Assembly: GCA_965261895.1 (NCBI GenBank)
Contig: OZ253480.1
Coordinates: 3,947,665 to 4,011,664, forward strand
Direction of reading: 5' to 3'
Length of the DNA: 64,000 nucleotides
Origin: an uncultured Candidatus Binatia bacterium
Lineage (GTDB): Bacteria; Desulfobacterota; Binatia; UBA9968; JAJDTQ01
Under the pieces are notes generated by a model. That model was not told the DNA's origin and did not search any database. It saw only the letters and a list, made by a program, of their open reading frames with translations. This document shows positions 2,200 to 19,334 of this stretch, one piece after another. How positions within the stretch are numbered: the first letter of the stretch is position 1; the number at the start of each line of letters is the position of its first letter. The translations under genes were made by a program, and so were the position numbers.

Positions 2200-2303
2200 G
2201 GCATAGTGTCCAATAGCCTTACTATCTACGCTTACTCCTTACATAATACAATAGGTAAGGATGTTTAGACCCTCCAGGACATTATCGTACGTCCTTGACA
2301 ATA

Positions 2304-2339: not shown

Positions 2340-2357
2340 ATATCGTGGTGATTATAG

Positions 2358-2774: not shown

Positions 2775-3484
2775 TCCGTGCGGCGGACCTTCCGGTCCGC
2801 GACGTCGTCGAGCCAGCGACCGTTCGGCTGGTCACCGCGGCCTACACGGAGAAGTCGGCAATGGCTCTACTGGCCGACGACCCGTCCGAGCTTGCCTTCC
2901 TGGAAGAGATCGAAGGCTTTACATCGGCCCTGACGCCTTCTGCGTCGGCGATCCCGGCCGGTATCCAACCCGGAGAATTGCTGACCGAGGCAGACGGCTA
3001 CGGTTGGCGCTACGTGAATGCTGCATTCTGCCACACGCGCCCCACGGGCAATCGTTTCAACGGCCCGGAACGCGGAGCCTGGTATGCGTCGTACGGGAAC
3101 CAGGCGACCGACACGGCGAAGGCCGAGGTCGCGTGGCATCTCACGCGCGAGCTTCGCGCCACCGGCATCTACGAAAACATCACGACATACAGGGAACTCC
3201 TGGCCGGCTTCATGAGCCACTTTCATGATTTCGGCGAGAGGACGGACGACGTGGTCTACAGCGGAGACCCTGAGGTGGTCTATCCCGCCGGACAGGCGCT
3301 GGCGCGGGACATCCTGGCAAGCGGCGGAAACGGGGTGCTTTACCCGTCCGCTCGGTATGAAGGTGGAAAATATCTGGCGGCGTTGCGGCCCAATCTCGTG
3401 CAGAACATCCGGGAAGGGGAGACCTGGGGGTTCAGATGGGCGGGGTCGGCGGAGGTGGAGATATTGAGGGTGGAGTCAACTTGA
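2771..3484 (+). CDS. RES-domain toxin (MbcT/ParT-like NAD+-targeting family)
   Basis: 237 aa from the internal start MIRAADLPVRD. RES-domain signature (R...E...S spacing; NRFNGPERGAWYASY...TGIYENITTYRELLAGF). It is translationally coupled to the upstream antitoxin. Confidence 0.75.
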   Translation: MIRAADLPVRDVVEPATVRLVTAAYTEKSAMALLADDPSELAFLEEIEGFTSALTPSASAIPAGIQPGELLTEADGYGWRYVNAAFCHTRPTGNRFNGPERGAWYASYGNQATDTAKAEVAWHLTRELRATGIYENITTYRELLAGFMSHFHDFGERTDDVVYSGDPEVVYPAGQALARDILASGGNGVLYPSARYEGGKYLAALRPNLVQNIREGETWGFRWAGSAEVEILRVEST

Positions 3485-3686
3485 TCCAGACTTGGAATGC
3501 GTGAGTGCCTGAGGGATTGAATCGGGCTGAATGCGGACAGCCGACCCACTTCTGCCACACAGAGGGTCAGTCGTCCTGGATTCACGGCACCGTTTTGATG
3601 TCAACAAGCGGTTGAGTCAAAGAAGGTGCACCGGTATCGTTACAATGAGTCTCACGCGCAGGCTGAGGGCCGGAGGGAGGTAGTCG

Positions 3687-4079
3687 ATGAGCGTTGAGGG
3701 GGCCAAGAAGCACATAGCACGAGCGAAAAAGCAGTTGGAAAGGGTTCAAACGGCGTGGTTCGACTCACAGGAGGCTGAGCAGGCGGTGACGTGGGGCTTC
3801 TATGCGTATGAGAACTGTGTGACCGCGCTTGCAGAGCGATACGGTTACCAGTGGACACCCAATCACCGCAAGAAGGCGGACCTCGCCCGAAGGCTCTACG
3901 ACGACGGACTGATTTCACGGGATGTCGGCGATGACCTTGAGGAATTTAACAGGCTCAGGAAGGACGTTGCGTACGGGGAGCCTGGCTACGATCTATTGGC
4001 GGTAGACCTTGAAGAACTCGTGAGTGAACTCGAAGAGTTCGTCGAAGAGGTGGAATCTCGTATTGGCTCTTCAAAATGA
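3687..4079 (+). CDS. HEPN-domain protein
   Basis: 130 aa, all-helical. Its stop overlaps the start of the following nucleotidyltransferase gene (4076/4079). HEPN plus NTase gene pairs are a recognised TA architecture. Confidence 0.55.
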   Translation: MSVEGAKKHIARAKKQLERVQTAWFDSQEAEQAVTWGFYAYENCVTALAERYGYQWTPNHRKKADLARRLYDDGLISRDVGDDLEEFNRLRKDVAYGEPGYDLLAVDLEELVSELEEFVEEVESRIGSSK

Positions 4080-4738
4080 GCGCCACGGTGGAAGACAGAA
4101 GCAGGCTGGTGCTGGCTGCCTTGGGCCACGCCGGGCTTGGGGACCGAGAGACGGTGGTTCTCGTCGGCTCCTGCGCCCGTGGCGTCACGAATTCGCGTAG
4201 TGACATAGACATCCTTGTTCTCTGTGATGATCGAAATCGTATTCGGCTGAAACGTCCGGGCGATATTCACCTGCAACAGAACAGCCGTTCACGTTTCCTC
4301 AAGCGACTAAAGGAGGGCGACGACTATCCGGCGTGGGCGTTGCGCTTTGGCATACCCATACACGATCCGGGTGGTTGGTGGGCCGAACAGGCAGCTTCGG
4401 AGGCTGCGACCCCTCATTGGCCGGATTGGCGCGCCAAGTTAGAGCACGCCAGAAAGCGTACGAGGATGGCGTCCGAGTTGCTTGAGGTTGAAGACTCGTA
4501 CGCGGCATCGGAGGAGTTATTGTTTGCAGCTAGCCACATAGCCAGAGCAACCCTCCTTAGAGCCGGCGTGTTTCCCCTCTCGCGACCAGAGTTGCCCTCG
4601 CAGTTGAAAGCTGTCGACCCGAACCTTGCCCGGTTGCTTGAATTGCTTATGACCGGCGACACGGATGCGGTTAATCTGCAGGAGGGTGAGTCGCTTGTCA
4701 TGCACCGGATCAAGGAGCTTTCCGATGAGCCTCGATAG
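4076..4738 (+). CDS. Nucleotidyltransferase (MNT-like) domain protein
   Basis: Pol-beta-type NTase motif GSCARGVTNSRSDIDILVLCDD (GS...D.D). A C-terminal helical extension follows. Confidence 0.65.
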   Translation: MSATVEDRSRLVLAALGHAGLGDRETVVLVGSCARGVTNSRSDIDILVLCDDRNRIRLKRPGDIHLQQNSRSRFLKRLKEGDDYPAWALRFGIPIHDPGGWWAEQAASEAATPHWPDWRAKLEHARKRTRMASELLEVEDSYAASEELLFAASHIARATLLRAGVFPLSRPELPSQLKAVDPNLARLLELLMTGDTDAVNLQEGESLVMHRIKELSDEPR

Positions 4739-4856
4739 CCGGACCTTCCAGCGTCTTGGCAGGTCACGCACCCCGATGCCATGACTAGGTCTCGGATGCA
4801 GACACCAGTTCTGCGTATCGGATAGGAGACTCCAGCAACGGGTTGGTTGTAGTGTC

Positions 4857-5510
4857 GTGACGAAGTCGAACGACAAATTGCGCGTTGAAATTGATCACCA
4901 ACAGTGGTCAAGCTTCTTCGATGAGTTGAAGTCGGAATCGGATCGGGGAGCGACGATTCTGGCCGGCGTGTGGATCGAGCAGTTGCTTGAACGCAAGCTC
5001 GCTACCTTGTTTACGGAAGGCAACTCGGATGCACGCAGGAGACTTTTCGACTTCAACGGGCCTTTCTCCGACTTCTCGTCCAAGATTCTTGCCGCATATT
5101 GTCTCGGCTGGATTGACTCGGACATCCACCACGATATTGATCTGGTTCGCAAGATCAGGAATCGCTTCGCCCATAGCCTCCATGGGTTGGATCTCGAAAG
5201 TCCACCGGTTCGACAGCTTATCGATGAATTTAAGGTTGCGGATCGTCACTACTACGATTGGACGGAGCTTCGAGCTGTCGCGACCGTGGATGGAAAAGGA
5301 TTCGTACTTTATACAGGCGAGCCACCGGAGGAAGCCGGAGACCCTTTGAAGATTCAGGCGTTTCGGTACAAATGGATCGTCAGCGTATTGGTCGCCGCGG
5401 TCGCGGCTAGTCTCGGCCTCGCTGTTCGGGATCAAGACCCCCAAACCGAAACCAATCCAGACCTAGGATCGGAACCGGACAGACCCGCACCGAAGACGAC
5501 GGGCGAGTGA
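4857..5510 (+). CDS. DUF4145-like (HEPN-family) protein with a C-terminal transmembrane helix, translationally coupled to hsdR
   Basis: An Rx4-6H HEPN-type motif (VRKIRNRFAHSLHG) and a hydrophobic C-terminal segment WIVSVLVAAVAASLGLAV. The stop overlaps the hsdR start (ATGA at 5507-5510). In many genomes DUF4145 is fused to the HsdR C-terminus. Confidence 0.4.
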   Translation: MTKSNDKLRVEIDHQQWSSFFDELKSESDRGATILAGVWIEQLLERKLATLFTEGNSDARRRLFDFNGPFSDFSSKILAAYCLGWIDSDIHHDIDLVRKIRNRFAHSLHGLDLESPPVRQLIDEFKVADRHYYDWTELRAVATVDGKGFVLYTGEPPEEAGDPLKIQAFRYKWIVSVLVAAVAASLGLAVRDQDPQTETNPDLGSEPDRPAPKTTGE

Positions 5511-8281
5511 GCGGAATGCTGAGCCCCAACCAGACCCCCGAACAGGCTGCCCGGGAAAGGATCGACGCGATGTTGTCCCACGCGGGCTGGGTCGTTCAGG
5601 ACAAGAAGAAGATCGACTTCAGCGTCAGCCTCGGGGTCGCCGTTCGCGAGTACCAGACTGATGTCGGTCCGGCGGACTACGTTCTCTTCGTCGACAAGAA
5701 GCCGGTTGGGGTCGTCGAGGCCAAGCCGAAGGTTTTGGGCCAGAAGATCACCACGGTCGAGGAACAATCCTCGGCCTACGCCGCCGCCAAGCTCAAGTGG
5801 GTGAACAATCGGGAGCCGCTGCCGTTCGTCTACGAGTCGACCGGCGTGTTGACCCGCTTCACCGATGGTCGCGATCCGAAGCCGCGGTCGCGTGAGGTGT
5901 TCTGCTTCCCTAGGCCGGAAATGGTTCAGGACTGGCGCGCCCAGCCGGCCTCGCTCCGTGAACGGCTCCAGGGGCTTCCGGTATTGGACCCGGCTGGCCT
6001 CCGGGCGTGCCAAATCAACGCCATCGAGAAGCTGGAGGCTTCCTTCAAGGATGATCGCCCGCGTGCCCTCATTCAGATGGCTACCGGCTCGGGCAAGACC
6101 TACACCGCCATTGGCTCCATCTACCGGCTGCTCAAGCACGCTGACGCCAAGAGGGTCCTGTTTCTCGTCGACACCAAGAATCTGGGCGAACAGGCCGAGC
6201 AGGAATTCATGGCCTATGTGCCCGGCGACGACAACCGCAAGTTCACCGAGCTTTATAACGTCCAACGCCTCAGGTCGTCCTTCGTCGCCAGGGACAGCCA
6301 TGTCTGTATCAGCACCATCCAGCGGGTGTACTCGCTCCTGAAGGGCCAGGAGTTGGACGAGTCCGCGGAGGAAACCAATCCGGAGGAGCTGGTTCAGCCC
6401 AAACAACCCATGCCGGTGGTCTACAATGAGAAGATTCCACCGGAGTTCTTCGACTTCATCATCATCGATGAGTGTCATCGGTCGATCTACAACCTCTGGC
6501 GTCAGGTCCTGGAGTATTTCGACGCCTATCTCATCGGCCTGACCGCTACACCGGACAGCCGCACCTACGGGTTCTTCAAGACCAACGTCGTCAGCGAATA
6601 CGACCACGAGCAGGCCGTCGCCGACGGCGTCAACGTGGGCAACGAGGTCTATGTCATCGATACGGAGAGGACCCGTCACGGCGGCCAGCTCAAGGCCAAC
6701 CAGCAGATTGAGAAGCGCGAGCGCCTGACTCGTCTGAGGCGCTGGCAAATACAGGAGGAGGACGCGACCTATGCCGGCAATCAGCTCGACCGCTCCGTAG
6801 TCAACCCGGATCAGATCCGCACCGTCGTCCGCACGTTCCGCGCCAAGCTGCCGGAGATATTCCCCGGCCGCAACGAAGTCCCGAAGACACTAGTCTTTGC
6901 CAAGACGGACAGCCACGCCGACGACATCATCCAGACCGTGCGCGAGGAGTTCGCCGAGGGCAACGAGTTCTGTAAGAAGATCACCTACAAGGTAGAAGAA
7001 GACCCGAAATCCGTCCTCGCGCAGTTCCGCAACGACTACTACCCGCGCATCGCCGTGACCGTGGACATGATTGCCACGGGCACGGACGTGAAGCCATTGG
7101 AATGCCTGCTCTTCATGCGCGACGTGCGGAGCCGCAACTACTTCGAACAGATGAAGGGCCGCGGCACCCGCACACTCGGCCACGATGATCTCAGGAAAGT
7201 CACCCCCTCGGCCCTCACCGCCAAGACCCACTACGTGATCGTGGACGCCGTGGGGGTCACCAAGTCGCTCAAGACCGTCAGCCAGTCGCTCATCACCAAG
7301 CCGTCCGTGCCGCTCAAGGATCTGGCCATGGGCGTGATGATGGGCGCTCGCGACGAAGACACAGTGAGCTCCCTGGCCGGCCGCCTCGCCCGGCTCAATC
7401 AACAACTCGATCCCGCGGAGCAGGAACGGATCAAGGCGAAGGCTGGGGGCACCGAGTTGACCGCTATCGTCGGCGATCTCCTGTCAGCCCTCGATCCTGA
7501 CCGCATCGACGAGAAGGCGCGCGAGATCGAGCCGGTGTTCGAAGGCGCCAGGCCCTCGCCAGTGGCTTACGACAAGGCGCGGGAACAGTTGGTCGGTGAC
7601 GCCGCGGCCGTGCTCAACGGGGAGTTGATCGAGTTGATCGACTCGATCCGCCGCGACAAGGAACAGACCATCGACCACGAGAGCCTGGACACCGTCCTGC
7701 GCGCCGAATGGGAGGGCGACGCCCAGGAGAACGCGAAGGCCATGGCCCAGGACTTCCAGACCTATCTGGAAGACCACCGCGACCGGATCGAAGCCCTGAC
7801 CATTTTCTACAGCCAGCCGCACCGCCGCCGCGACTTGACCTTCGTCATGATCCGAGAGGTCTTCGACAGGCTCAAGAGCGACCGCCCTCGATTGGCCCCA
7901 TTGCGAGTCTGGCAGGCCTACGCCCTGCTCGACGAATACAAAGGCGGTCAACCGGCCAGTGATTTGACGGCGCTGGTTGCCTTGATCCGCCGGGTCTGCG
8001 GCATTGACGCGACCTTATCGCCCTACGCGGAAACCGTGCGCCGCAATTTCCAGAACTGGATCATGACCCACCACAGCGGCGGCGGCGAGAAGTTCAACGA
8101 GGAGCAGATGGAGTGGCTCCGCATGATGCGGGACCACATCAGCCATTCCTTTCATCTGGAACGCAACGATCTCGACATGGCCCCGTTCGATGGCAAGGGC
8201 GGCATGGGCCGGATGTACAATCTGTTCGGCGACCGGATGGATGGCGTTATTGCTGAGTTGAATGAGGCGTTGGCGGGGTAA
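5507..8281 (+). CDS. hsdR: Type I restriction enzyme R subunit (HsdR)
   Basis: 924 aa. It has an N-terminal HSDR_N nuclease region (DYVLFVDKKPVGVVEAKP), helicase motif I ATGSGKTYTA, and motif II DECHRS. The hsdS start codon abuts its stop. Confidence 0.85.
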   Translation: MSGMLSPNQTPEQAARERIDAMLSHAGWVVQDKKKIDFSVSLGVAVREYQTDVGPADYVLFVDKKPVGVVEAKPKVLGQKITTVEEQSSAYAAAKLKWVNNREPLPFVYESTGVLTRFTDGRDPKPRSREVFCFPRPEMVQDWRAQPASLRERLQGLPVLDPAGLRACQINAIEKLEASFKDDRPRALIQMATGSGKTYTAIGSIYRLLKHADAKRVLFLVDTKNLGEQAEQEFMAYVPGDDNRKFTELYNVQRLRSSFVARDSHVCISTIQRVYSLLKGQELDESAEETNPEELVQPKQPMPVVYNEKIPPEFFDFIIIDECHRSIYNLWRQVLEYFDAYLIGLTATPDSRTYGFFKTNVVSEYDHEQAVADGVNVGNEVYVIDTERTRHGGQLKANQQIEKRERLTRLRRWQIQEEDATYAGNQLDRSVVNPDQIRTVVRTFRAKLPEIFPGRNEVPKTLVFAKTDSHADDIIQTVREEFAEGNEFCKKITYKVEEDPKSVLAQFRNDYYPRIAVTVDMIATGTDVKPLECLLFMRDVRSRNYFEQMKGRGTRTLGHDDLRKVTPSALTAKTHYVIVDAVGVTKSLKTVSQSLITKPSVPLKDLAMGVMMGARDEDTVSSLAGRLARLNQQLDPAEQERIKAKAGGTELTAIVGDLLSALDPDRIDEKAREIEPVFEGARPSPVAYDKAREQLVGDAAAVLNGELIELIDSIRRDKEQTIDHESLDTVLRAEWEGDAQENAKAMAQDFQTYLEDHRDRIEALTIFYSQPHRRRDLTFVMIREVFDRLKSDRPRLAPLRVWQAYALLDEYKGGQPASDLTALVALIRRVCGIDATLSPYAETVRRNFQNWIMTHHSGGGEKFNEEQMEWLRMMRDHISHSFHLERNDLDMAPFDGKGGMGRMYNLFGDRMDGVIAELNEALAG

Positions 8282-9871
8282 ATGTCACTAGGGGTTTCAC
8301 CGTTAGAAATCGTGGCGAAGGGCATTTATCATCTCCTCGCCAAAGCGGATCACTGGAAGCGTGTTTTCGTGTCCGAAGTCGCTCACGTGCAGAACGGCTT
8401 CGCGTTCAAATCCTTGTACTTTGATCCCGACCACGGGGTTCCACTCGTTCGCATCCGCGACATCTCCAAAGAAGAAACAGAACACCGGTATTTTGGGGAA
8501 TTCGATGACCAGTACTTGATAGAGAAGGGCGACATTCTTGTCGGAATGGACGGCGATTTCGCCGTGTCCCGATGGAGGGGTGGCAAGGCACTTCTAAATC
8601 AACGTGTATGCAAGGTCACAGTAACAAGTGATCGCTTTGATGAACGCTTTTTGTTCCTTTGCCTACAGCCTTTTCTGGACGCAATTAACGCCGAGACGTC
8701 GTCAGTAACCGTAAAGCATCTTTCTTCAAAGACTGTCGACGAAATTCCATTGCCCCTGCCGCCACTCGCGGAACAGCACCGCATCGTCGCCAAGATCGAA
8801 GAACTCTTCTCGGAACTCGACAAGGGCATCGAGACCCTGAAGACGGCACGCAGGCAGCTTGAAGTCTATCGACAGTCTGTCCTGAAGCACGCCTTCGAAG
8901 GGAAGCTCACGGCGCAATGGCGCGAAGAGAACAAGGACAAGCTTGAGACGCCTGAGCAATTGTTGGCTCGCATCAAGAAGGAGCGGGCGGCGCACTATGA
9001 GCGGCAACTCCAGGAGTGGAAGGCTAATGCCAACAGAGGGGAAAGGACTATCAGACGCAGTTTGGCTTCCAGGCCTGCCAAGCTGAAAGATGTTGCGCGA
9101 TTATCGCTCGAGGAGACGGAGACGCTTTCACCTCTCCCGGGTGGTTGGTCATATGTGCGGTTGGGTTTGGTGATCGACGAGCCCAAATACGGCACTTCCA
9201 AGAAATGTGACTACAATTTCGAGGGAACGGGGGTTCTAAGGATCCCTAACGTCGTCCGCGGCCTCATTGATGACGCTGATTTAAAGGGTGCTTGCTTTGA
9301 AGACGATGAGAAATGGGCCTACTCTTTGAGAAGCGGCGATATTCTGATGATCCGGTCCAACGGCAGCATTTCGATAGTTGGGAAGTGTGCGCTGGTCTCC
9401 AGTGCAGAGCAACGGTATCTGTATGCAGGATACCTAATTCGCATTCGCCCCAACCCCGCCGTGGTGCTTCCGGAATACCTTGCCGTGCTCATATCTAGTC
9501 ATCCGGTACGAGTTCAGATCGAAGGCTTTGCGAAATCGACGAGCGGCGTGAACAACATAAACTCTGGTGAAATCCAGTCATTGATCGTGCCATTGTGCCG
9601 TGTACAAGAACAACAGGAGATGGTTGCGCAGTTGTCCGCGATGATCTCGGGGATGGACGCGACTACCACCGAGATCGACGAACAGTTGCGTACAACCGAT
9701 ACGCTCCGTCAAGCGGTCCTGAAGAAAGCCTTCGCCGGTCAACTAGTCCCCCAAGACCCCGGCGATGAGCCTGCTTCTGTTCTTCTGGAGAAGATCAGGA
9801 CGGAGCGGGCGAAGGCCGGCAAGGGCGGCCCAACCGCCAGAAGAAACAAAAAGGCGAAGACTGCGGCATGA
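8282..9871 (+). CDS. hsdS: Type I RM specificity subunit (HsdS), two target-recognition domains
   Basis: 529 aa. It has a duplicated TRD architecture and conserved central and C-terminal coiled-coil repeats (LPPLAEQHRIVAKIEELF; LRQAVLKKAF). GC content is lower than the surrounding genes. Confidence 0.8.
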   Translation: MSLGVSPLEIVAKGIYHLLAKADHWKRVFVSEVAHVQNGFAFKSLYFDPDHGVPLVRIRDISKEETEHRYFGEFDDQYLIEKGDILVGMDGDFAVSRWRGGKALLNQRVCKVTVTSDRFDERFLFLCLQPFLDAINAETSSVTVKHLSSKTVDEIPLPLPPLAEQHRIVAKIEELFSELDKGIETLKTARRQLEVYRQSVLKHAFEGKLTAQWREENKDKLETPEQLLARIKKERAAHYERQLQEWKANANRGERTIRRSLASRPAKLKDVARLSLEETETLSPLPGGWSYVRLGLVIDEPKYGTSKKCDYNFEGTGVLRIPNVVRGLIDDADLKGACFEDDEKWAYSLRSGDILMIRSNGSISIVGKCALVSSAEQRYLYAGYLIRIRPNPAVVLPEYLAVLISSHPVRVQIEGFAKSTSGVNNINSGEIQSLIVPLCRVQEQQEMVAQLSAMISGMDATTTEIDEQLRTTDTLRQAVLKKAFAGQLVPQDPGDEPASVLLEKIRTERAKAGKGGPTARRNKKAKTAA

Positions 9872-9941: not shown

Positions 9942-11528
9942 ATGACTGGCAAGCTTCCCATCAACCTTCACGATCTGCTGCGCCAGCGGACCATCGAGGG
10001 CGAGCGCGTCGAGTACAAAGCCGGTTGGAATCCGAAGGCCGTGCTGCACGCCATCTGCGCCTTCGCCAACGACTTCCACAATCTGGGCGGCGGTTACGTG
10101 GTACTGGGAGTCGAGGAACAAAACGGCCGTCCAGTCTTGCCGCCCATGGGCATCAATCCCGATTCGGTTGACGCGATACAGAGAGAACTGCTGAATCTTG
10201 GACACTCGGCCATACAACCTCACTACCACCCGCTTACAGCCACTTATGAAGTCAATGGCCGGACAATCCTCGTATTGTGGGCGCCCGGCGGCGAAACCCG
10301 ACCCTACAAGGCCAGACTCAGCCTGACGCCGAAACGGCAAGAGTGGGGCTATTTCAACCGCAAGCACAGCAGCACCGTCCGCGCCAAGGGCCAAGACGAG
10401 CGCGAGCTGCTAAGCCTGACCGCCACCGTGCCCTTTGATGATCGATATCGCCAAACGGCTTCACTGGATGACCTGTCCCATCGGCTCATCCGGGAGTTTC
10501 TGCGGGATATTGGCAGCGACCTCGCTTCTGAAGCAGCCGATCTATCGGTGGCGGCCCTTGGTCAGCGTATGAATATCGTCGGCGGACCGCCCGAGGCAGT
10601 GTTTCCCAAGAACGTCGGCTTGCTGTTCTTCAACGACCGCCCGCACGACTTCTTCCCCGCAACCCAGATCGACGTAGTGTGGTTCCCGGACGGCCCGGGT
10701 GGGGACCAATTCGAGGAAAAGGAATTCCGCGGTCCTCTGTCGGTCATCCTCAGCGAGGCGATCAGCTACATTGAGCGGAACTACCTGAAGGAAACAATCG
10801 TCAAGCATCCTCACAAGCCGGAAGCTGAGCGATTCTGGAACTTTCCCATCGGCGCAATCGAGGAGGCGCTGGTCAATGCCGTCTACCATCGCTCTTACGA
10901 GGAGCGGGAGCCAGTGGAGGTGCGCATCACGCCTGACGAGTTGGTGGTCTTGAGCTTCCCCGGCGCCGACCGATCCATCCGCATGGAAGACTTCAAGAAA
11001 GGGTAAGCCGTCAGCCGCCGCTACCGCAATCGCCGAATTGGAGAGTTTCTCAAGGAGCTAGAACTGGCCGAAGGCAGGTCAACTGGGGTACCCAAGATTC
11101 TGCGGGCCATGCGGCAAAACGGCTCCCCGGCCCCGATCTTCGAGAGCGACGAAGATCGCACCTGGTTTCTGGTCCGTCTGCCGGTGCATGAACGGGCGCG
11201 CCCGGAGCCATCCGGGCAAGATACCCAGCAAGACACCGAACATGACACCGGGCAAGTCACCGGGCAAGATACCGGGCAAGTCACCGATCATGTCGAGCAA
11301 CTGGTGGCGGCCCTCACCGGAGAGATGAGCCGCGCTGAATTGCAGGCGGCGTTGAGCTTGACTCACCGGGACTACTTCACCGCGACGTATCTGCGACCCG
11401 CCCTCGAAGCCGGCCTGATTGAAATGACGCTCCCCGACAAACCAACCAGCCGAAACCAGCGTTATCGGCGCACCGCGGCCGGCGAAGCCCTGGCGCGACA
11501 AGCCAAGACGAAGGACTCCTCCGCATGA
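9942..11528 (+). pseudogene. AlbA_2 (Schlafen-like) + HATPase_c_4 'RecG-like' putative regulator commonly found in type I RM operons, interrupted by an in-frame TAA at 11004-11006
   Basis: The N-terminal part (9942-11006) starts MTGKLPINLHDLLRQRTIEGERVEYK. After TAA the same frame continues (AVSRRYRNRRIGEFLKELELAEGRSTGVPKILRAMRQNGSPAPIFESD...) to 11528, which is the canonical C-terminal portion of this family. A QDT/GQVT low-complexity repeat lies at ~11217-11290. Confidence 0.6.
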
Positions 11529-13018
11529 ACACCGCCCCCATCGTCTCCAAAGTCTGGAGCTTCTGTACCACCCTGCGCGACGACGGGGTGGGCTACGGCG
11601 ACTACCTGGAACAGCTTACCTATCTGATCTTCCTCAAGATGGCTGACGAGTACGGGAAGCCGCCGCGCAATCGTGATGTGGGCATCCCAGCCGAGTACAA
11701 CTGGCCGAGCCTGAGGTCGAAGCGGGGCGCGGAACTGGAAAACCACTACGTCACGCTGCTTCGTGAGCTTGGCGCCAAGAACGGCATGCTGGGCCAGATC
11801 TTCACCAAGGCCCAGAACAAGATCCAGGATCCGGCGAAGCTGTATCGCCTGATCGATATGGTGGACAATACCGAGTGGGTCACCATGGACGCCGACATCA
11901 AGGGCGACATCTATGAGGGCCTGCTGGAGAGGAATGCCGAGGACACGAAGTCGGGCGCGGGGCAGTATTTCACGCCGCGCGCCCTGATCCGCGCCATGGT
12001 GGAATGCGTTCGGCCCGAGCCAAGCAGGCTGATCGCCGACCCCGCCTGCGGCACGGGCGGGTTCTTCCTGGCGGCCTACGACTTCCTCACCAACCAGGAC
12101 AACTTCAACCTCGACCAGCGGCAGAAGGCATTTCTGAAGCACGAGGCCTTTCACGGTAACGAGATCGTGGCCAACACCCGTCGCCTCTGTCTGATGAACA
12201 TGTTCCTTCACAACATCGGCGAGATCGACGGTGGCGCGCCAATATCGCCCAATGACTCGCTCGTGGCCGATGCCGGACAGCGCTTCGACTACGTGTTCGC
12301 GAACCCTCCTTTCGGCAAGAAGAGCTCCATGAGTTTCACCAATGAGGAGGGCGGGCAGGAGACGGACGATCTGACCTACAACCGGCAGGATTTCTGGGCC
12401 ACTACCTCAAACAAGCAGCTCAATTTCGTGCAGCACATTCGGACCATGCTCAAGAGCGACGGCCGCGCCGCGGTCGTGGTGCCGGACAACGTGCTGTTCG
12501 AGGGCGGCGCCGGCGAGACCATCCGGAAGAAGCTGCTGGACAACACCGACCTCCACACCATCCTGCGCCTTCCCACCGGCGTGTTCTACGCCCAAGGGGT
12601 CAAAGCCAACGTGATCTTCTTCGACAATCGCGAAGCCAGCCCCGACCCGTGGACGAAACAGGTCTGGTACTACGACTACCGCACCAACATTCACCACACG
12701 CTCAAGAAGAAGCCCATGCGCTACGAGGACCTGCTGGATTTCGTCAAGTGCTACAACCCGCGGAACCGGCATCAGCGCAAGGCCGCCTGGGATGAGAACG
12801 ACGCCCCCGAGGGCCGTTGGCGCAGCTACAGCTATGAGGAGCTCAGGGCCCGCGACAAGACCAGCCTCGACGTCTTCTGGCTCAAAGACAAGAGTCTGAC
12901 CGACCTGGACAACCTGCCGGAACCCGACGATCTCGCCGAAGAGATCATCGAGAACCTCGAAGCGGGCCTTAACAGTTTCCGCGAGGTGCTCGCCGGCTTG
13001 CGGCAGGCAGGTAGTTGA
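11525..13018 (+). CDS. hsdM: Type I RM N6-adenine DNA methyltransferase subunit (HsdM)
   Basis: 497 aa with the SAM motif DPACGTGGF and the catalytic motif IV FANPPFG. Its start overlaps the stop of the preceding gene fragment. Confidence 0.85.
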   Translation: MNTAPIVSKVWSFCTTLRDDGVGYGDYLEQLTYLIFLKMADEYGKPPRNRDVGIPAEYNWPSLRSKRGAELENHYVTLLRELGAKNGMLGQIFTKAQNKIQDPAKLYRLIDMVDNTEWVTMDADIKGDIYEGLLERNAEDTKSGAGQYFTPRALIRAMVECVRPEPSRLIADPACGTGGFFLAAYDFLTNQDNFNLDQRQKAFLKHEAFHGNEIVANTRRLCLMNMFLHNIGEIDGGAPISPNDSLVADAGQRFDYVFANPPFGKKSSMSFTNEEGGQETDDLTYNRQDFWATTSNKQLNFVQHIRTMLKSDGRAAVVVPDNVLFEGGAGETIRKKLLDNTDLHTILRLPTGVFYAQGVKANVIFFDNREASPDPWTKQVWYYDYRTNIHHTLKKKPMRYEDLLDFVKCYNPRNRHQRKAAWDENDAPEGRWRSYSYEELRARDKTSLDVFWLKDKSLTDLDNLPEPDDLAEEIIENLEAGLNSFREVLAGLRQAGS

Positions 13019-13070
13019 GTGTGCGAACCGCCTGGTCGTGTAGACTCGGCGTCCAAAGAAAGGACTAACG

Positions 13071-14231
13071 ATGACGTGGTTCGATTGGCGAAGGCGGGCG
13101 CGGCATCCTGTGGGGCAAAAGTGGCGCATTGATGAGCAGGAGTTTGGGGTTATCGACTTGGGTCGCGATATGAGCCGTGATCTGAGGAGCCATATCGACA
13201 AGGTAGTAGGCATACGCGGCAAGCCCTTCGAGACCGGAGGTGTCTTGAGTCCGGCATTCTTCCCGATCGCAGGTGCTGGTGCGGGGATGGCATCCTCCCT
13301 TTTTGCCGGCAACGTGTTTTTGGCAACCGCCAACAATCCCGCCACCCTGATGCAAATCGGCGCGGGTGTTGGGTCTGCGGTTATGGGACCGACCGGGGTG
13401 ATTGCGCACGCCCCGTTTATTGCAGCGGGTGGCGCCATAATCCCAGTGGTTGCACCGGTTCTGCTCTTCACTGCGGTAGCGGCGATGGCGATATGTGCCC
13501 GTTTGGATCGGCTTCAAGTCTCCCTGGAGCGAATTGAAAGCTTGGTCAAGCAGTTGTTGGCACAAGAACTCGCCGAAGACAGCGCCCTCCTCGTCAGTGC
13601 GATGCAACGCCTTGAAGACATCTCCGCAGAGTTCGAAGGATGCGGACGGTTTACCGAAGAAATGAAGATTCGGTTGGCGTTGGCCGAACGGGATCTCAAC
13701 GTACTGCACCACAAATACGAAATCCTTTCGGGATTGGAAGTTGACGATCAAACTGGCGCCGAGCTTGGGGTGCTCCGCACCAAACTCTTTGCCATGTCGA
13801 GCATTGCAGATATCAGGGTGGACCGCCTCCGGTTCAAACTGGCTCTCCAGGACAATCCGGAGTATTTCGATAGACGGTTTTCCATGATGATTTCGAAGAT
13901 CGCCCTGTATGAAGCCTCATTCGGATATCTCGCGGAGACCACCCCGTTGAAACAACGCCAGGATGAGTTGCAGACAGCCGTCGACGACATGGGTTTCTTG
14001 ATGAAGAACGTCTTCGCAAGGCAAAAATTCAAGAAGACGATAGCCGAGATTGAGGCGACTGCTGAAAAGGTGAAACAAATCCAAGAGATCCTGAGTTCAC
14101 CTGTTGACCCTAAGTCAGACGACAGTTCGGAACAGCAGCATTTCGTTTACTACCGTGAGCAGAACGGCAAGGGAGACTTGAAGGCGTACTATACCGCTGA
14201 CTTGAAGCTCGTGGCGCAGGAGGCAGCCTGA
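13071..14231 (+). CDS. Uncharacterised protein: Gly/Ala-rich predicted 2-TM N-terminal region plus a long C-terminal coiled coil, encoded directly downstream of hsdM
   Basis: 386 aa. The hydrophobic glycine-zipper-like segments are AGAGAGMASSLFAGNVFLATANN and GAIIPVVAPVLLFTAVAAMAICARL, followed by heptad-rich helices. No family was recognised by eye. GC is lower than in neighbouring genes. Confidence 0.5.
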   Translation: MTWFDWRRRARHPVGQKWRIDEQEFGVIDLGRDMSRDLRSHIDKVVGIRGKPFETGGVLSPAFFPIAGAGAGMASSLFAGNVFLATANNPATLMQIGAGVGSAVMGPTGVIAHAPFIAAGGAIIPVVAPVLLFTAVAAMAICARLDRLQVSLERIESLVKQLLAQELAEDSALLVSAMQRLEDISAEFEGCGRFTEEMKIRLALAERDLNVLHHKYEILSGLEVDDQTGAELGVLRTKLFAMSSIADIRVDRLRFKLALQDNPEYFDRRFSMMISKIALYEASFGYLAETTPLKQRQDELQTAVDDMGFLMKNVFARQKFKKTIAEIEATAEKVKQIQEILSSPVDPKSDDSSEQQHFVYYREQNGKGDLKAYYTADLKLVAQEAA

Positions 14232-14266: not shown

Positions 14267-14543
14267 GTGGAGAAAACAACTGAACGCCGAAGAACGGGAG
14301 ATTCTGGAGCATTTCGAGCGGGGCGAGTTGACGGCTGCATCCCAAGCTCAGCGTGAGATGGAGACGGCACAGCATGCGGCCTGCAACACGTTCAACAAGA
14401 CCCGGAGAGTCAACCTGCGGGTCACCGAGCGCGACTTCAACCTCGCGCACGCGCGTGCGCGCTAGGAGGGTATCCCGTACCAGACGCTGTTATCGAGCGT
14501 CATTCACAAGTACCTTTCCGGACGGCTGACCGAGAACAGGTAA
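14267..14543 (+). pseudogene. BrnA/CopG-family antitoxin remnant (COG3514-like), carrying a frameshift and an in-frame amber codon
   Basis: The family signature ...NKTRRVNLRVTERDFNLAHARAR*EGIPYQTLLSSVIHKYLSGRLTE is present. A TAG at 14463-14465 replaces the usual Glu codon (GAG). The N-terminal KQLNAEEREILEHFERGEL is in frame only if one A is removed from the A4 run just after the GTG at 14267. No BrnT-like toxin gene lies upstream. Confidence 0.5.
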
Positions 14544-16447: not shown

Positions 16448-16480
16448 ATCATATGATAAGATTAAATAGAATCATATGAT
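16448..16480. promoter_or_regulatory. Two ATCATATGAT palindromic operator repeats upstream of and overlapping the start of the second Xre-like antitoxin
   Basis: aaATCATATGATaag at 16448-16457 and gaATCATATGATatg at 16471-16480. This is the same core as the 2304-2321 palindrome upstream of copy 1. Confidence 0.5.
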
Positions 16481-16916
16481 ATGGCGTGAGACCTGGAGAA
16501 TGGCGCGTCCATTTCGAGACAGTCGCGGCGAAAGACTTCTCAGGCCCCTCGGGGACCGCGACAGGATCGCGGTTGTCGTAAAGGCCGTGGTGCGCGCGGC
16601 TGATGCATGGGGTTTGACCAATATCGAGGGCGCGGCCCTGTTCGACGTGCCCACGGCCACCTGGAGCCGCATGAAGGCCGGCAGCTACAGGGGCACACTC
16701 GATCAGGACAAGGTGACACGGGCAAGTCTGATAATCGGGTTGTTCAACGGGCTCGCGTCACTCTTCAACGGCCCGCTGGCCCATGGCTGGCCCAACGTTC
16801 CCAACACCGGCCCCGTTTTCGACGGCAGGACGCCGGTCCAGGTCATGTGCGAAGGCGGCATCCCCGCCATGATGACGGTACGACAGCACATCGATGCGCT
16901 GAGAGGCGGGGCATGA
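16476..16916 (+). CDS. Xre/MbcA/ParS-like antitoxin (DUF2384), second diverged copy
   Basis: 146 aa, highly similar to 2358-2774 at ~85-90% nucleotide identity by eye. The ATGA overlaps the toxin start. Confidence 0.7.
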   Translation: MIWRETWRMARPFRDSRGERLLRPLGDRDRIAVVVKAVVRAADAWGLTNIEGAALFDVPTATWSRMKAGSYRGTLDQDKVTRASLIIGLFNGLASLFNGPLAHGWPNVPNTGPVFDGRTPVQVMCEGGIPAMMTVRQHIDALRGGA

Positions 16917-17626
16917 TCCGCGTCGCGGACCTCCCGGTCCGTGAAGTCGTCGAGCCGGCGGCGGTCAGGTTGGTCACAGCCGGCTACCTGGACAAGCCGG
17001 CAATGGCGCTGCTCGCGGATGACCCGTCTGAATTCGCAATTCTGGAAGAGATCGAAGGGCTCACATCGGCCCGGGCGCCTTCATCGCCCACGGTCCCGTC
17101 CGGTATCCAACCGGGGGAATTGCTGACGGAAGCGGACGGGTACGGCTGGGCCTCCGTGAACGCCGCGTTCTGCCACACGCGCCCCACGGGCAACCGGTTC
17201 AACGGCCCGGAACGCGGAGCCTGGTATGCGTCCTATGGGAACAGGGTGACCGACACGGCGAAGGCCGAGGTCGCGTGGCATCTCACGCGGGAGCTTCGCG
17301 CCACCGGAATCTACGAGAACATCACGACATACAGGGAACTCCTGGCCGGCTTCATGACCCGCTTTCATGATCTCGGCGAGAGGACGGATGACGTGGTCTA
17401 CAGCGGAGATCCTGAGGTGGCCCATCCCGCCGGACAGGCGCTGGCCCGGGACATCCTGGCAGGCGGCGGAAACGGGGTGCTTTACCCGTCCGCGCGGCAT
17501 GAAGGCGGGAGGTGTCTGGCGGCGTTACGGCCCAATCTTGTGCAGAACATCCGCGAGGGTGAGATGTGGGTGTTCAGATGGGCGGGGTCGGCGGAGGTGG
17601 AGATCTCTAGAGGAGCGGCATCGTGA
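16913..17626 (+). CDS. RES-domain toxin, second diverged copy
   Basis: 237 aa from MIRVADLPVRE, near-identical in motifs to 2771-3484. Confidence 0.75.
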   Translation: MIRVADLPVREVVEPAAVRLVTAGYLDKPAMALLADDPSEFAILEEIEGLTSARAPSSPTVPSGIQPGELLTEADGYGWASVNAAFCHTRPTGNRFNGPERGAWYASYGNRVTDTAKAEVAWHLTRELRATGIYENITTYRELLAGFMTRFHDLGERTDDVVYSGDPEVAHPAGQALARDILAGGGNGVLYPSARHEGGRCLAALRPNLVQNIREGEMWVFRWAGSAEVEISRGAAS

Positions 17627-17759: not shown

Positions 17760-19271
17760 TTGGCGATGGCTGGCATTCTGATCAGTTGGATCGGTCAAAC
17801 TGACCTTCGGGCACCGGGGGAAGGGCCGCTCGTAGGGAAGGGTCCGATAGCCCAGGCGCTCGACACAAACTCCTATGACGCTGCCGTGCTGATTAGCGAT
17901 TACTCGAAAAGAGAGGTGACGCCGTTCCTACACTGGCTCCGACCGCAGATCGGAGCGCAAGTATCTGTCCACTACAAGCCGTTGTCCGGTCCCACAAACT
18001 TTGGCGAGATATACGAAGCTGCGGCTCAGGTTGTGACAGAGTCGCTCGCGCGACACGGCAGGGATTCTGAGCTGACCTTTCACCTGAGCCCAGGGACCCC
18101 AGCCATGGCGGCGGTCTGGATTGTTCTCGCCAAGACGCGGTTCCCCGCTGATCTGATCGAGTCTTCGCCCAAGCACGGTGTACGGACGGCCTCAGTACCC
18201 TTCGATATATCGGCAGAGTTTGTTCCCGACCTCCTCCGAGGTCCGGATGAACGCCTCGCGAAGCTCACCGCCGGGCTTCCTCCCGAGGCCCCGGAGTTCG
18301 CCGATATCATTCACCGTAGCCGCGTCATGGCTCGCGTAATCGCCAAGGCGCGTCGCGTTGCAGCCCGGTCAGTGTCTATACTTATAGAGGGTGAGACGGG
18401 TACCGGAAAGGAATTGCTGGCCCGGGCCATCCACCGTGCTAGCCTTCGGCGGGATAAGCCCTTCAAGGCCGTGAACTGCGGCGCAATACCGGCTGAACTC
18501 GCAGAATCCGAGCTCTTTGGCCATGAGAAAGGTGCCTTTACGGGTGCGGACAAAAAGAGGGTTGGCCACTTTGAGGCCGCGAGTGGCGGGACGCTCTTCC
18601 TTGACGAGGTCGGCGAGCTTTCGCTTGCCGTACAAGTAAAGCTGCTTCGTATTCTCCAGGAGGGGGAGGTGCTGCGTGTCGGTTCGACGACGCCGATCAA
18701 GGTGGACGTTCGAATCATCGCGGCAACAAACCGGGCCCTCGCCGATGAAGTCGCCGCAGGTCGCTTCAGGGAGGATCTATTCTATCGCCTTGCGGTGGCG
18801 GGTCTGAAACTGCCCCCCCTGAGAGAGAGAAGAGGCGACCTGAACCTTCTCCTGGATCAGTTGCTCGCCCAAGTCAACGAGGAACGCGCACAGCAGCCGG
18901 GCTATGAGCACAAGAAATTTTCTGTGAGCGCAAGAAATATTCTTCTCACTCATCCGTGGCCGGGTAACGTTCGAGAGTTGCTGAATACGCTTCATCGGGC
19001 GACGCTCTGGACGCCAGGACCGACAATCCAGGGTGAAGATGTGCGGGAGGCATTGCTGCCGGCGATAGACCGAAAGGCCTCGGGCATCCTCGACCGTCCG
19101 CTCGGCGATGGTCTCAACCTCCTGGATTTATTGGCTTCGGTGGCGCGGCACTATCTTGTGCGCGCCCTTGACGAGGCCCAGGGTAACAAGACACAGGCGG
19201 CCCGCTTGGTAGGGCTTTCGAGCTATCAGACGTTCACGAACTGGTTGGGTAAGTACGACGTGAAGCCGTGA
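17760..19271 (+). CDS. Sigma54-dependent transcriptional activator (bEBP) with a non-receiver, RtcR/CARF-like N-terminal sensor domain
   Basis: AAA+ sigma54-interaction domain with Walker A GETGTGKELLARAIH, the GAFTGA loop (FGHEKGAFTGADKK), Walker B LFLDEVGEL, and a C-terminal Fis-type HTH. The ~170-aa N-terminal domain lacks receiver Asp residues and recalls the RtcR CARF-like domain (..HLSPGTPAMAAVWIVLAKTRFPADLIESSP..). Confidence 0.75.
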   Translation: MAMAGILISWIGQTDLRAPGEGPLVGKGPIAQALDTNSYDAAVLISDYSKREVTPFLHWLRPQIGAQVSVHYKPLSGPTNFGEIYEAAAQVVTESLARHGRDSELTFHLSPGTPAMAAVWIVLAKTRFPADLIESSPKHGVRTASVPFDISAEFVPDLLRGPDERLAKLTAGLPPEAPEFADIIHRSRVMARVIAKARRVAARSVSILIEGETGTGKELLARAIHRASLRRDKPFKAVNCGAIPAELAESELFGHEKGAFTGADKKRVGHFEAASGGTLFLDEVGELSLAVQVKLLRILQEGEVLRVGSTTPIKVDVRIIAATNRALADEVAAGRFREDLFYRLAVAGLKLPPLRERRGDLNLLLDQLLAQVNEERAQQPGYEHKKFSVSARNILLTHPWPGNVRELLNTLHRATLWTPGPTIQGEDVREALLPAIDRKASGILDRPLGDGLNLLDLLASVARHYLVRALDEAQGNKTQAARLVGLSSYQTFTNWLGKYDVKP

Positions 19272-19287: not shown

Positions 19288-19334
19288 TGAGAGAGTACCT
19301 GTTGGAAGAAAGCCGGCCACGTACGGATGAGGCA

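What the first reader, a model, noticed from the sequence alone, without database searches (positions are those of the whole stretch)
13071..14231. Uncharacterised 386-aa Gly/Ala-zipper membrane + coiled-coil protein directly downstream of hsdM
Two glycine-zipper-like hydrophobic segments (AGAGAGMASSLFAGNVFLATANN; GAIIPVVAPVLLFTAVAAMAICARL) are followed by ~230 aa of predicted coiled coil. Its GC content is lower than that of its neighbours. Its position, 52 bp after hsdM and immediately before a decayed BrnA antitoxin gene, suggests an accessory defence or abortive-infection effector rather than a housekeeping protein. I could not assign it to a family.
Basis: seen in the sequence. Interest (0 to 1): 0.6.

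Follow-up and report, generated by a model that had tools for sequence, protein, structure and literature searches.

The report
Uncharacterised membrane-associated defence-island protein family
The gene after hsdM is real and belongs to a widespread, unnamed protein family with no detectable relative of known structure. The family repeatedly sits beside anti-phage systems and on mobile DNA, so it is a good but untested candidate for a new membrane-acting defence protein.

Summary
The ORF at 13071-14231 (+, 386 aa) is a real gene under purifying selection (dN/dS 0.20-0.27). It has a ribosome-binding site and hundreds of homologues. It matches no family in Pfam, NCBIfam, PADLOC or PHROGs, and no structure in PDB or BFVD.

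Its anatomy has three parts:
- A small N-terminal alpha/beta unit. Its sheet pairing with the C-terminal hairpin is an inference.
- An 85-residue Gly/Ala-rich stretch with almost no charge. This is the best-conserved part of the family, and only its last segment scores as a classical transmembrane helix.
- A helical bundle of about 200 residues.

No partner gene is conserved across 83 loci. However, the gene recurrently abuts defence genes on the same strand. It lies next to type I R-M in two gene orders. In seven Gemmatimonadota loci it lies next to the Tiamat gene TmtA, with 0-1 nt spacing in the three downstream cases where it was measured. It also occurs on the lactococcal phage-resistance plasmid pNP40, between R-M genes, an OLD-family gene and a resolvase in Sedimentibacter, and flanked by IS elements in Enterococcus. 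A paralogous locus kept the gene after its R-M system was deleted. No homologue was found in phages.

Best reading: an autonomous or add-on defence effector acting at the inner face of the membrane. The function is inferred from context, not shown. The downstream brnA is a pseudogene, which argues against a toxin-antitoxin pairing.

The parts
13071..14231 (+). Complete ORF (386 aa) of the uncharacterised family, called 'X' here.
   Evidence: ORF. Homologues. dN/dS 0.20-0.27. No hit in Pfam, NCBIfam, PADLOC or PHROGs.
13057..13064 (+). Shine-Dalgarno-like GAAAGGA, 6 nt before the ATG.
   Evidence: Read directly from the sequence. The N-terminus aligns with orthologue starts.
13071..13250 (+). 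N-terminal unit (residues 1-60): beta-hairpin 14-29, helix 31-49 and strand 57-59. Conserved D29, G31, S35, P52, F53 and G56.
   Evidence: AF2 models (pLDDT 71-87 for residues 11-60 in the second model). Invariant columns.
13251..13505 (+). Gly/Ala-rich stretch almost free of charge (residues 61-145). It has three segments: S1 62-88 (small residues every fourth position, G68/G72/S76/G80), S2 89-115 (GAGVGSAVMG...APF) and S3 116-144 (the only clearly hydrophobic helix, with conserved P125 and P129).
   Evidence: Composition and hydropathy. It is the most conserved part of the superfamily (L93, G99 and F116 invariant; F83, A85-A87, P90, M94, V100-V104, I110, P125 and P129 at least 90% conserved). 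AF2 confidence is below 50 for residues 82-123.
13506..14096 (+). Helical bundle (residues 146-342). Helix 124-191 continues out of S3, followed by helices 196-219, 227-261, 263-289, 292-305, 309-315 and 317-342.
   Evidence: AF2 gives pLDDT of about 84-97 across most of the bundle (residues 151-340). No significant Foldseek match.
14139..14195 (+). C-terminal beta-hairpin (residues 357-375) with the conserved motif VYYRE..G.G.LKAYYT.DL. It probably joins the N-terminal strands in one sheet.
11525..13018 (+). hsdM (type I methyltransferase), probably co-transcribed with X.
   Evidence: ORF. The orthologue carries HsdM_N and N6_Mtase. No promoter or convincing terminator lies in the gap.
5507..9871 (+). 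hsdR (5507-8281, EcoEI_R_C type) and hsdS (8282-9871) of the same type I system.
9942..11528 (+). Schlafen/AlbA_2-HATPase_c_4-Fic-like_C accessory gene between hsdS and hsdM. In this window it is split into two ORFs (to 11006 and 11109-11528).
   Evidence: The intact orthologue in L091 is 524 aa.
14268..14543 (+). brnA-like (CopG antitoxin) pseudogene. It has a 1-nt insertion after the start codon and an in-frame TAG at 14463-14465.
   Evidence: The orthologue matches CopG_antitoxin.
3687..4738 (+). HEPN (3687-4079) and nucleotidyltransferase (4076-4738) pair. The same pair directly precedes the X paralogue in locus L004.
   Evidence: 70-73% identity to the L004 pair.

Best explanation
X is a member of an undescribed family of defence-island and mobile-element proteins. 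It most likely works at the cytoplasmic face of the membrane as an anti-phage effector. It may act alone or as an add-on to DNA-targeting systems, here the type I R-M system.

Proposed mechanism (inferred):
- The N-terminal strands and the C-terminal hairpin form one small cytosolic domain on top of a helical bundle.
- The Gly/Ala-rich stretch S2-S3 forms a hydrophobic hairpin, which is either docked or shallowly inserted in the membrane.
- On a trigger, such as phage infection or failure of the neighbouring system, the bundle rearranges or oligomerises. The glycine-rich hairpin then inserts and perturbs the membrane, stopping the infection by abortive infection or by blocking DNA entry.

Shown here: the gene is real and conserved, the anatomy is as described, and the gene repeatedly neighbours defence genes. 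Inferred: membrane location, the trigger, and any toxicity.
For: Recurrent same-strand adjacency to unrelated defence genes:
- hsdR-hsdS-(AlbA_2)-hsdM-X in the window, L001 and L091.
- X-hsdR-hsdS-hsdM with 0-15 nt gaps in L092, L093 and L015-L017, including a context with integrases and TrwC.
- Adjacent to TmtA of Tiamat (PADLOC E=9e-212) in 7 Gemmatimonadota loci. TmtA lies downstream in five and upstream in two. In the three downstream cases where spacing was measured (L046, L053, L055) the gap was 0 to -1 nt. The upstream flanks of those three differ.
- Other immediate neighbours include PglZ, mad2, Mrr, DUF499, AAA_21, transposases, an integrase and a resolvase.

Distant homologues also sit in defence or mobile contexts:
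- On the phage-resistance plasmid pNP40, a clear homologue (hhalign probability 99.6%) lies between LlaJI and a DUF2130 plus TrlF-ATPase pair.
- In Sedimentibacter, a homologue lies between Eco57I-type R-M genes plus an OLD-family gene and a resolvase.
- In E. faecium, a homologue is a single gene between IS elements.

Independence from R-M. The paralogous locus L004 retains X plus a remnant of about 50 nt of the hsdM 3' end, while the R-M genes are gone.

Membrane link. S3 scores as a transmembrane helix in all members. Many homologues add one or two bona fide N-terminal TM helices ahead of the module.

Modularity. The whole module is fused C-terminally to RRM, GYF_2 or a dynamin-like GTPase in distant members.

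Evolution. X evolves faster than hsdM (dN/dS 0.20-0.27 against 0.05-0.08) and has lower GC. No homologues were found in phages or IMG/VR.
Against: - No experiment bears on the function, and no match exists to any known effector family or fold.
- Most loci have no recognised defence gene as an immediate neighbour, and some neighbours are plainly housekeeping genes.
- Sponge-symbiont and lactococcal-plasmid genomes are defence-rich anyway, which inflates chance adjacency. Several R-M-linked loci are syntenic relatives, so they are not independent.
- S1 and S2 are below the transmembrane threshold. AF2 does not model residues 82-123 with confidence. The very high conservation of that stretch suggests a specific interaction or ligand site rather than simple lipid insertion.
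- The lactococcal plasmidome screen selected candidates 'preferably with no transmembrane domains'. The pNP40 homologue does not appear in the text of the papers read.
Confidence: 0.4

Rival explanations
1. X is a membrane tether or scaffold rather than a killer. It would sit at the inner membrane and recruit or position large ATP-dependent DNA-targeting enzymes (type I R-M, TmtA) at the site of phage DNA entry. Alternatively it would itself hinder DNA entry, like a superinfection-exclusion protein.
For: - X is tightly coupled on the same strand to two unrelated large DNA-targeting enzymes, at either end of the operon.
- The cytosolic bundle and the highly conserved Gly-rich patch could be an interaction surface.
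- Extra TM anchors in many homologues show that membrane location is what is selected.
- From my own knowledge, not checked here: pNP40 is reported to carry an unassigned mechanism that affects phage DNA penetration. The title of that report is cited by papers found.
Against: - X occurs alone between IS elements, and it persists after R-M deletion. An obligate partnership is therefore unlikely.
- The partners differ completely between lineages.
- Nothing links the pNP40 homologue to the penetration phenotype.
Confidence: 0.2
2. X is the toxin of a toxin-antitoxin or addiction module of mobile DNA, with the downstream BrnA-like protein as its antitoxin or regulator.
For: - An intact 91-aa CopG/BrnA-like gene follows X, 35-120 nt downstream, in L091 and L001.
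- The window is packed with TA pairs: Xre/RES twice, DUF433/DUF5615, HEPN/MNT and PIN.
- X travels on plasmids and between IS elements.
Against: - brnA is a pseudogene in this window while X is intact and under purifying selection.
- brnA follows X only in the closest clade, and no small partner is conserved over 83 loci.
- BrnA's usual partner, BrnT, is a ribonuclease of about 90 aa that is unrelated to X (established knowledge).
Confidence: 0.08
3. X is a membrane-remodelling or membrane-maintenance protein with no direct role in defence. One possibility is a stand-alone version of a module used by dynamin-like GTPases. A related possibility is a niche factor of marine or sponge-associated bacteria. 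Under either reading, it only hitch-hikes in variable genome regions.
For: - One distant member carries the whole module at the C-terminus of a 1200-aa Dynamin_N protein.
- Many neighbours are ordinary metabolic genes.
- The window's own subfamily is found almost only in uncultured MAGs of lineages typical of sponges and marine habitats.
Against: - The gene is patchy, multi-copy and found across phyla. It lies on plasmids, next to IS elements and next to integrases.
- It has no stable housekeeping neighbourhood.
- It lacks a GTPase domain.
- The superfamily is not restricted to sponge lineages. It occurs in Lactococcus, Enterococcus, Vagococcus, Sedimentibacter, Fibrobacter and Lentisphaeria.
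Confidence: 0.17

Closest known systems
Accessory effectors embedded in type I R-M loci (PrrC and RloC anticodon nucleases guarded by the R-M complex)
   Same: X is an extra same-strand gene at the edge of a type I hsd operon. The linkage is conserved in two gene orders. A backup role if restriction is disabled is conceivable.
   Different: X has no ABC-ATPase or nuclease domain. It is hydrophobic and helical. It is also found without any R-M system and next to other systems.
Membrane-acting defence effectors (2TM/SLATT effectors of CBASS-like systems, Cap15, RexB and similar)
   Same: X is a small protein with a hydrophobic segment or segments, located in defence islands. Its architecture is modular, with variable N-terminal domains fused to a constant module.
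   Different: X matches no Pfam or PADLOC model of any of these families. It has only one clear hydrophobic helix. The bulk of the protein is a cytosolic helical bundle with a fold unmatched in PDB.
JukB, effector of the Juk anti-jumbo-phage system (PDB 9jht)
   Same: The size is similar. It has the motif GAGSIVKHLPF (compare GPTGVIAHAPF in X), followed by a hydrophobic helix and then a helix reading KL.KIQ.S... JukB was the best non-family hit among about 7,500 decoy ORFs. It is a defence effector that acts at the infection site.
   Different: The similarity is not significant. The profile search against PDB gave E=0.044, hhalign gave 18% probability and the family HMM gave 7-9 bits. JukB did not appear among the listed Foldseek PDB hits. 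JukB needs the sensor JukA, and no JukA-like gene was noticed next to X.
Helical pore formers with a buried hydrophobic hairpin (ClyA/AhlC-type alpha-toxins, colicin pore domains)
   Same: An Ala/Gly-rich hydrophobic element is combined with an amphipathic helical bundle. This suggests a soluble-to-membrane switch.
   Different: The best structural match to this class is AhlC at Foldseek E=0.66 and TM-score 0.16, which is chance level. X is cytosolic, with no secretion signal noted. The resemblance is by analogy only.
Lactococcal plasmid Abi and other antiphage genes (pNP40: AbiE, AbiF, LlaJI)
   Same: A full-length homologue (377 aa) lies in the defence region of pNP40 and on ten related lactococcal plasmids.
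   Different: That homologue is annotated 'hypothetical protein'. It is not among the systems named in the papers read.

Membership tests
Any curated protein family (Pfam-A, NCBIfam, PADLOC-DB 2.0, PHROGs) | A score above the family's threshold. | tested here: not met
   The best Pfam hit was NPV_P10 at 18.7 bits against a cut-off of 29.8. NCBIfam and PADLOC gave no hits. PHROGs gave E>=0.24.
PrrC/RloC-type R-M-guarded effectors | Gene located inside or beside a type I hsd operon. | tested here: met
   X starts 52 nt after hsdM. The linkage is conserved in two gene orders.
PrrC/RloC-type R-M-guarded effectors | An N-terminal ABC-type ATPase and a C-terminal anticodon nuclease domain. | tested here: not met
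   No ATPase or nuclease signature was found in any library. The predicted fold is a helical bundle.
BrnT/BrnA toxin-antitoxin | A BrnT (DUF497) toxin of about 90 aa encoded next to an intact BrnA. | tested here: not met
   X is 386 aa with no DUF497 hit. brnA in the window is a pseudogene.
Two-TM / glycine-zipper membrane effectors (SLATT, Gly-zipper Pfam families) | Two hydrophobic helices that pass transmembrane criteria, and a match to the family profile. | tested here: not met
   Only S3 exceeds Kyte-Doolittle 1.6; S1 reaches 1.4 and S2 1.3. There is no profile match. TMHMM and DeepTMHMM were not available.
Coiled-coil protein | Long heptad-repeat helices that form a supercoil. | tested here: inconclusive
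   AF2 gives seven helices of 7-68 residues packed as a bundle. Only sub-threshold hits to coiled-coil Pfam families were found. No coiled-coil predictor was run.
JukB | Significant sequence or structural similarity to JukB (PDB 9jht). | tested here: inconclusive
   Profile against PDB gave E=0.044. hhalign gave 18% probability. The family HMM gave 7-9 bits, though JukB was the top decoy. JukB was absent from the listed Foldseek hits.
JukB | Operon with the sensor JukA. | not tested
   No partner is conserved next to X in 83 loci. JukA was not searched for explicitly.
ClyA-type alpha-pore-forming toxins | Structural match to the ClyA, Hbl or AhlC bundle with a hydrophobic head. | tested here: not met
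Bacterial dynamin-like proteins | A Dynamin_N GTPase domain. | tested here: not met
   X has no such domain. One distant 1200-aa member has Dynamin_N upstream of the X module.
Defence-island gene (operational definition: enriched next to known defence genes) | Known defence genes among close neighbours more often than the genome background. | tested here: inconclusive
   By my rough count, about one locus in five has a recognised defence gene as an immediate neighbour: type I R-M, TmtA, PglZ, Mrr and others. No genome-wide background was computed, and the loci are not phylogenetically independent.

The most novel reading that the evidence does not exclude
The X module is a previously unrecognised, phylum-spanning anti-phage effector with a new fold. 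It would work at the membrane on its own, which would explain why it can sit alone between IS elements and survive loss of its R-M neighbour. Type I R-M, Tiamat and other systems would recruit it as a plug-in second layer. The conserved G-x-G-V-G-S-A-V-M-G...A-P-F patch would be its active or gating element. The homologue on pNP40 would then be an additional, so far unassigned, resistance determinant of that classic plasmid.
Probability: 0.3. Interest if true: 0.72.

Novelty: new variant of a known kind. Interest (0 to 1): 0.55.

Why it matters
If the family is a defence effector, it adds a new and structurally unmatched building block to bacterial immunity. It has about 400 clusters at 50% identity. 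It spans Binatia, Acidobacteriota, Gemmatimonadota, Firmicutes and other phyla.

It would also show that systems treated as single-gene or self-contained, such as Tiamat and type I R-M, carry a shared optional partner.

There is a practical angle. A homologue sits on lactococcal dairy plasmids, where phage resistance has industrial value. That homologue is easy to test.

If the gene turns out not to be defensive, the finding is still a well-delimited orphan family with a strikingly conserved glycine-rich motif that deserves a name.

Tried and rejected
- Family libraries. Pfam, NCBIfam, PADLOC and PHROGs scans of X and of distant members gave nothing above threshold.
- Sequence searches of PDB. 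Two full-length profiles, one core profile and one fragment were used. Only chance-level coiled-coil hits appeared, apart from a weak JukB lead.
- Structure. Two AF2 models were made (pLDDT 70 and 76). Foldseek against PDB (twice) and against BFVD gave no hit below E=0.05.
- JukB lead. I recovered JukB-like genes from metagenome contigs and compared them with the family. hhalign gave 18% probability and the HMM gave 7-9 bits, so the link is not established.
- Conserved partner gene. All-against-all clustering of ORFs from 83 loci found none.
- Phage-borne homologues. None were found in INPHARED or IMG/VR.
- Source contig. The exact protein is not on record.
- Literature on the pNP40 homologue. 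It was not mentioned in the papers read. The 2006 pNP40 sequence paper is not held.
- Promoter and terminator scan around the gene. It was uninformative.
- Rejected idea: X as BrnT-like toxin, for the reasons given under the rival explanations.
- Rejected idea: X as an obligate type I R-M subunit. It is absent from most type I systems and present without them.
Full report
**1. The observation**

The ORF at 13071-14231 on the + strand encodes 386 aa. It begins 52 nt after the hsdM stop. A GAAAGGA ribosome-binding site ends 6 nt before the ATG.

They lie in an 85-residue stretch (residues 61-145) made of 26% Ala and 13% Gly, with a single charged residue.

On the Kyte-Doolittle scale only the last segment (S3, residues 116-144) is a classical transmembrane candidate, with a best 19-mer of 2.5. 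S1 (62-88) reaches 1.4 and S2 (89-115) reaches 1.3. The same pattern holds across 93 family members.

GC content is 55.0% for the ORF and 52% in its 3' two-thirds. hsdM and hsdR have about 61-62%, and the whole window has 62.2%.

The downstream brnA-like gene is a pseudogene. Relative to intact 91-aa orthologues, it has a 1-nt insertion right after the start codon and a GAG-to-TAG change.

The ORF is a real gene. Homologues number 211 in the word-indexed search and 409 clusters at 50% identity in the exhaustive search. dN/dS against three orthologues or paralogues is 0.20-0.27.

**2. Anatomy**

Two AlphaFold2 runs were made, with alignments of 50 and 93 sequences. They gave mean pLDDT of 70 and 76 and pTM of 0.53 and 0.62. 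They agree on the following elements:
- An N-terminal beta-hairpin (residues 14-29), a helix (31-49) and a short strand (57-59).
- A poorly modelled Gly/Ala-rich region. In the better model it contains a strand at 83-87, and pLDDT is below 50 for residues 82-123.
- One very long helix (124-191) that starts as the hydrophobic S3 and continues into a confidently predicted bundle of five or six further helices, ending at residue 342.
- A C-terminal beta-hairpin (357-375) carrying the conserved motif VYYRE..G.G.LKAYYT.DL.

The N- and C-terminal strands probably form one sheet. If it is right, both ends lie on the same side of the membrane. The hydrophobic part would then be a hairpin or re-entrant element rather than a single span.

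The 'coiled coil' is therefore better described as a helical bundle.

The Gly/Ala-rich stretch is the best-conserved part of the whole superfamily. F83, A85-A87, P90, L93, M94, G99-V104, I110, F116, P125 and P129 are invariant or nearly so at 23-30% overall identity. That is unusual for a mere lipid anchor.

In distant members the stretch is somewhat less hydrophobic and carries more charged or polar residues. This suggests a conditional rather than constitutive membrane element.

Many homologues of 470-507 aa add one or two unmistakable TM helices ahead of the module. In these, positive charges flank the cytoplasmic side. The module is therefore kept at the inner face of the membrane.

**3. 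Homology**

- Pfam, NCBIfam, PADLOC and PHROGs gave nothing above threshold.
- Profile searches of PDB sequences gave nothing significant.
- Foldseek against PDB (both models) and against BFVD gave best E-values of 0.056, 0.12 and 0.11, with TM-scores of at most about 0.27 on the query.

One lead came from a core profile covering residues 95-235. It hit JukB (PDB 9jht), the effector of the Juk anti-jumbo-phage system, at E=0.044. The match comprises a shared G.G.IV.h.PF motif, a hydrophobic helix, and a helix reading KL..IQ.S.

I recovered JukB-like genes from metagenome contigs to test this. hhalign gave only 18% probability. A 260-sequence family HMM gave 7-9 bits, although JukB was the best non-family hit among about 7,500 decoy ORFs. 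I regard the link as unproven.

**4. Distribution**

The window's subfamily was found in 80 loci of species-representative genomes. All are MAGs: Binatia, Thermodesulfobacteriota, Vicinamibacterales, Longimicrobiales and other Gemmatimonadota, Ca. Palauibacter, Ca. Multivorans, Nitrospirales, Latescibacterota, Spirochaetia and others. Several genomes hold two copies.

Many bin names are those used for sponge metagenomes. This rests on my own knowledge. Palauibacterales are marine and also sponge-associated according to PMC10469786.

The superfamily is wider. It includes Lactococcus, Enterococcus, Vagococcus, Sedimentibacter, Fibrobacter, Lentisphaeria, an actinobacterium and Flavobacterium, and every member is annotated 'hypothetical'.

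Distant members fuse the complete module to N-terminal RRM, GYF_2 or a full dynamin-like GTPase. No homologue was found in 50,697 phage records or in IMG/VR.

**5. Genomic company**

I clustered all ORFs of 83 loci and found no universally conserved neighbour. Several recurrent neighbours are informative.

*Type I R-M of the EcoEI_R_C type.*
- The order hsdR-hsdS-(AlbA_2)-hsdM-X occurs in the window, L001 and L091.
- The opposite order, X-hsdR-hsdS-hsdM with 0-15 nt gaps, occurs in L092, L093 and L015-L017. In L093 it lies beside two integrases and a TrwC fragment.

*A paralogous locus in the L001 genome.* In L004 the order is HEPN-MNT-X. The same HEPN-MNT pair lies upstream of hsdR in the window and is 70-73% identical. 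The MNT-X spacer in L004 still contains about 50 nt homologous to the 3' end of hsdM. The R-M genes were therefore deleted and X was kept. The hsdM-X linkage predates the split between the two paralogues, which are 55% identical.

*Tiamat.* In seven Gemmatimonadota loci, X abuts a protein of about 1,900 aa on the same strand.
- This neighbour matches TmtA of Tiamat over its full length (PADLOC E=9e-212; Pfam Sacsin plus NOV_C).
- TmtA lies downstream of X in five loci and upstream in two.
- In the three downstream cases where spacing was measured (L046, L053, L055) the gap was 0 to -1 nt, and the upstream flanks of those three differ.

*Other immediate neighbours.* They include PglZ, mad2, Mrr, DUF499, AAA_21, DUF4143, transposases, an integrase and a resolvase. 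They also include ordinary metabolic genes.

*Lactococcal plasmids.* A full-length homologue (hhalign probability 99.6%) lies on pNP40, between the LlaJI R-M genes and a DUF2130 plus TrlF-like ATPase pair. It is also found on ten related plasmids. pNP40 is known for AbiE, AbiF and LlaJI (PMC8194271). The homologue is not mentioned in the papers I could read.

*Sedimentibacter and Enterococcus.* In Sedimentibacter, the gene lies between an OLD-family gene with two Eco57I-type R-M genes on one side and a resolvase and RadC on the other. In E. faecium, it is a lone gene between IS elements.

*The window itself.* It is a dense defence and TA island. It holds two type I systems, Xre/RES twice, DUF433/DUF5615, HEPN/MNT and PIN.

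**6. Interpretation**

The evidence fits a mobile, self-sufficient module that is often bolted onto DNA-targeting defence operons and acts at the cytoplasmic membrane face.

I favour an effector role, with a confidence of 0.4. In this model a trigger makes the bundle rearrange or oligomerise, and the glycine-rich hairpin then disturbs the membrane.

The rivals are:
- A tether or DNA-entry blocker (0.2).
- A non-defence membrane-remodelling or niche protein that hitch-hikes in variable regions (0.17).
- A toxin paired with BrnA (0.08). This is weakened because brnA is dead here while X is intact.

What is shown is the gene, its conservation, its anatomy and its neighbours. Location, trigger and toxicity are all inferred.

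Three cautions apply. The adjacency statistics lack a genome background. The R-M-linked loci are partly syntenic relatives. The host genomes are rich in defence genes anyway.

**7. Novelty and score**

The family is unnamed and unmatched in sequence and fold. The kind of thing proposed, a membrane-associated defence-island effector, is familiar.

I rate it a new variant of a known kind, with interest 0.55. The cheapest decisive test is to clone or delete the pNP40 homologue in Lactococcus.

Noticed in passing
window 9942-11528: The Schlafen/AlbA_2-HATPase_c_4-Fic-like_C gene between hsdS and hsdM is split here into two ORFs of 354 aa and 139 aa. The orthologue in L091 is a single 524-aa protein. 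This is probably a frameshift or pseudogene, or an assembly error.
   Followed up: partly
window 14268-14543: The brnA-like CopG antitoxin gene has two lesions: a 1-nt insertion after the GTG start and an in-frame TAG at 14463-14465. No brnT gene was seen next to it.
   Followed up: yes
window 2308-3484 and 16448-17626: There are two copies of an Xre-like antitoxin plus RES toxin pair. They are 84% identical at the DNA level and lie in direct orientation about 14 kb apart. They bracket the first type I R-M system and X, so they could be a substrate for recombination or deletion.
   Followed up: partly
window 3687-4738; L004 8791-9845: A HEPN-like (130 aa) plus nucleotidyltransferase (220 aa) pair precedes the R-M/X block in the window. 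The same pair directly precedes the X paralogue in L004, where only about 50 nt of hsdM remain. This is a clean example of an R-M system being deleted from an island.
   Followed up: yes
window 4857-5510: A 217-aa ORF overlaps the hsdR start by 4 nt. It has a weak MtlR-like match (E=3e-4, below threshold) and a C-terminal hydrophobic helix. It may be another accessory gene of the operon.
   Followed up: no
window 17760-19271; L098 4320-5864: A sigma-54-type AAA+ regulator with an N-terminal '(I/V)SWIG..DL' domain sits just upstream of the window's second type I R-M system (hsdR at 19302, hsdM at 21634). By eye, its N-terminus resembles that of a 514-aa regulator-like ORF lying downstream of the JukB-like gene in the metagenome contig L098. 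No alignment or domain scan of the L098 protein was made.
   Followed up: no
L046, L053, L055, L068, L074 (X then TmtA); L057, L070 (TmtA then X): The Tiamat gene TmtA, described as a single-gene system (from my own knowledge), has X as a tightly linked same-strand neighbour in seven Gemmatimonadota species. The pair occurs in both gene orders.
   Followed up: partly
L094 (pNP40) 1534-5404; L095; L006 11944-13131: A DUF2130 protein, paired on the lactococcal plasmids with a large AAA or TrlF-like ATPase, lies next to the X homologue. A DUF2130 gene also lies about 2.7 kb from X in a Binatia genome. The ATPase has weak PADLOC hits (Ppl, mad3, GajA-like).
   Followed up: partly
L092 10001-11380: In this Binatia genome X is called as two pieces of 362 aa and 77 aa. 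The 77-aa piece is the X C-terminus. This is either a frameshifted copy or a long-read indel error.
   Followed up: partly
L096 6377-8919: In Sedimentibacter, X is preceded on the same strand by three genes: one with a faint Amidoligase_2 hit, one with glutamine amidotransferase (GATase_6/7) domains, and a 160-aa unknown. They may form an operon with X.
   Followed up: no
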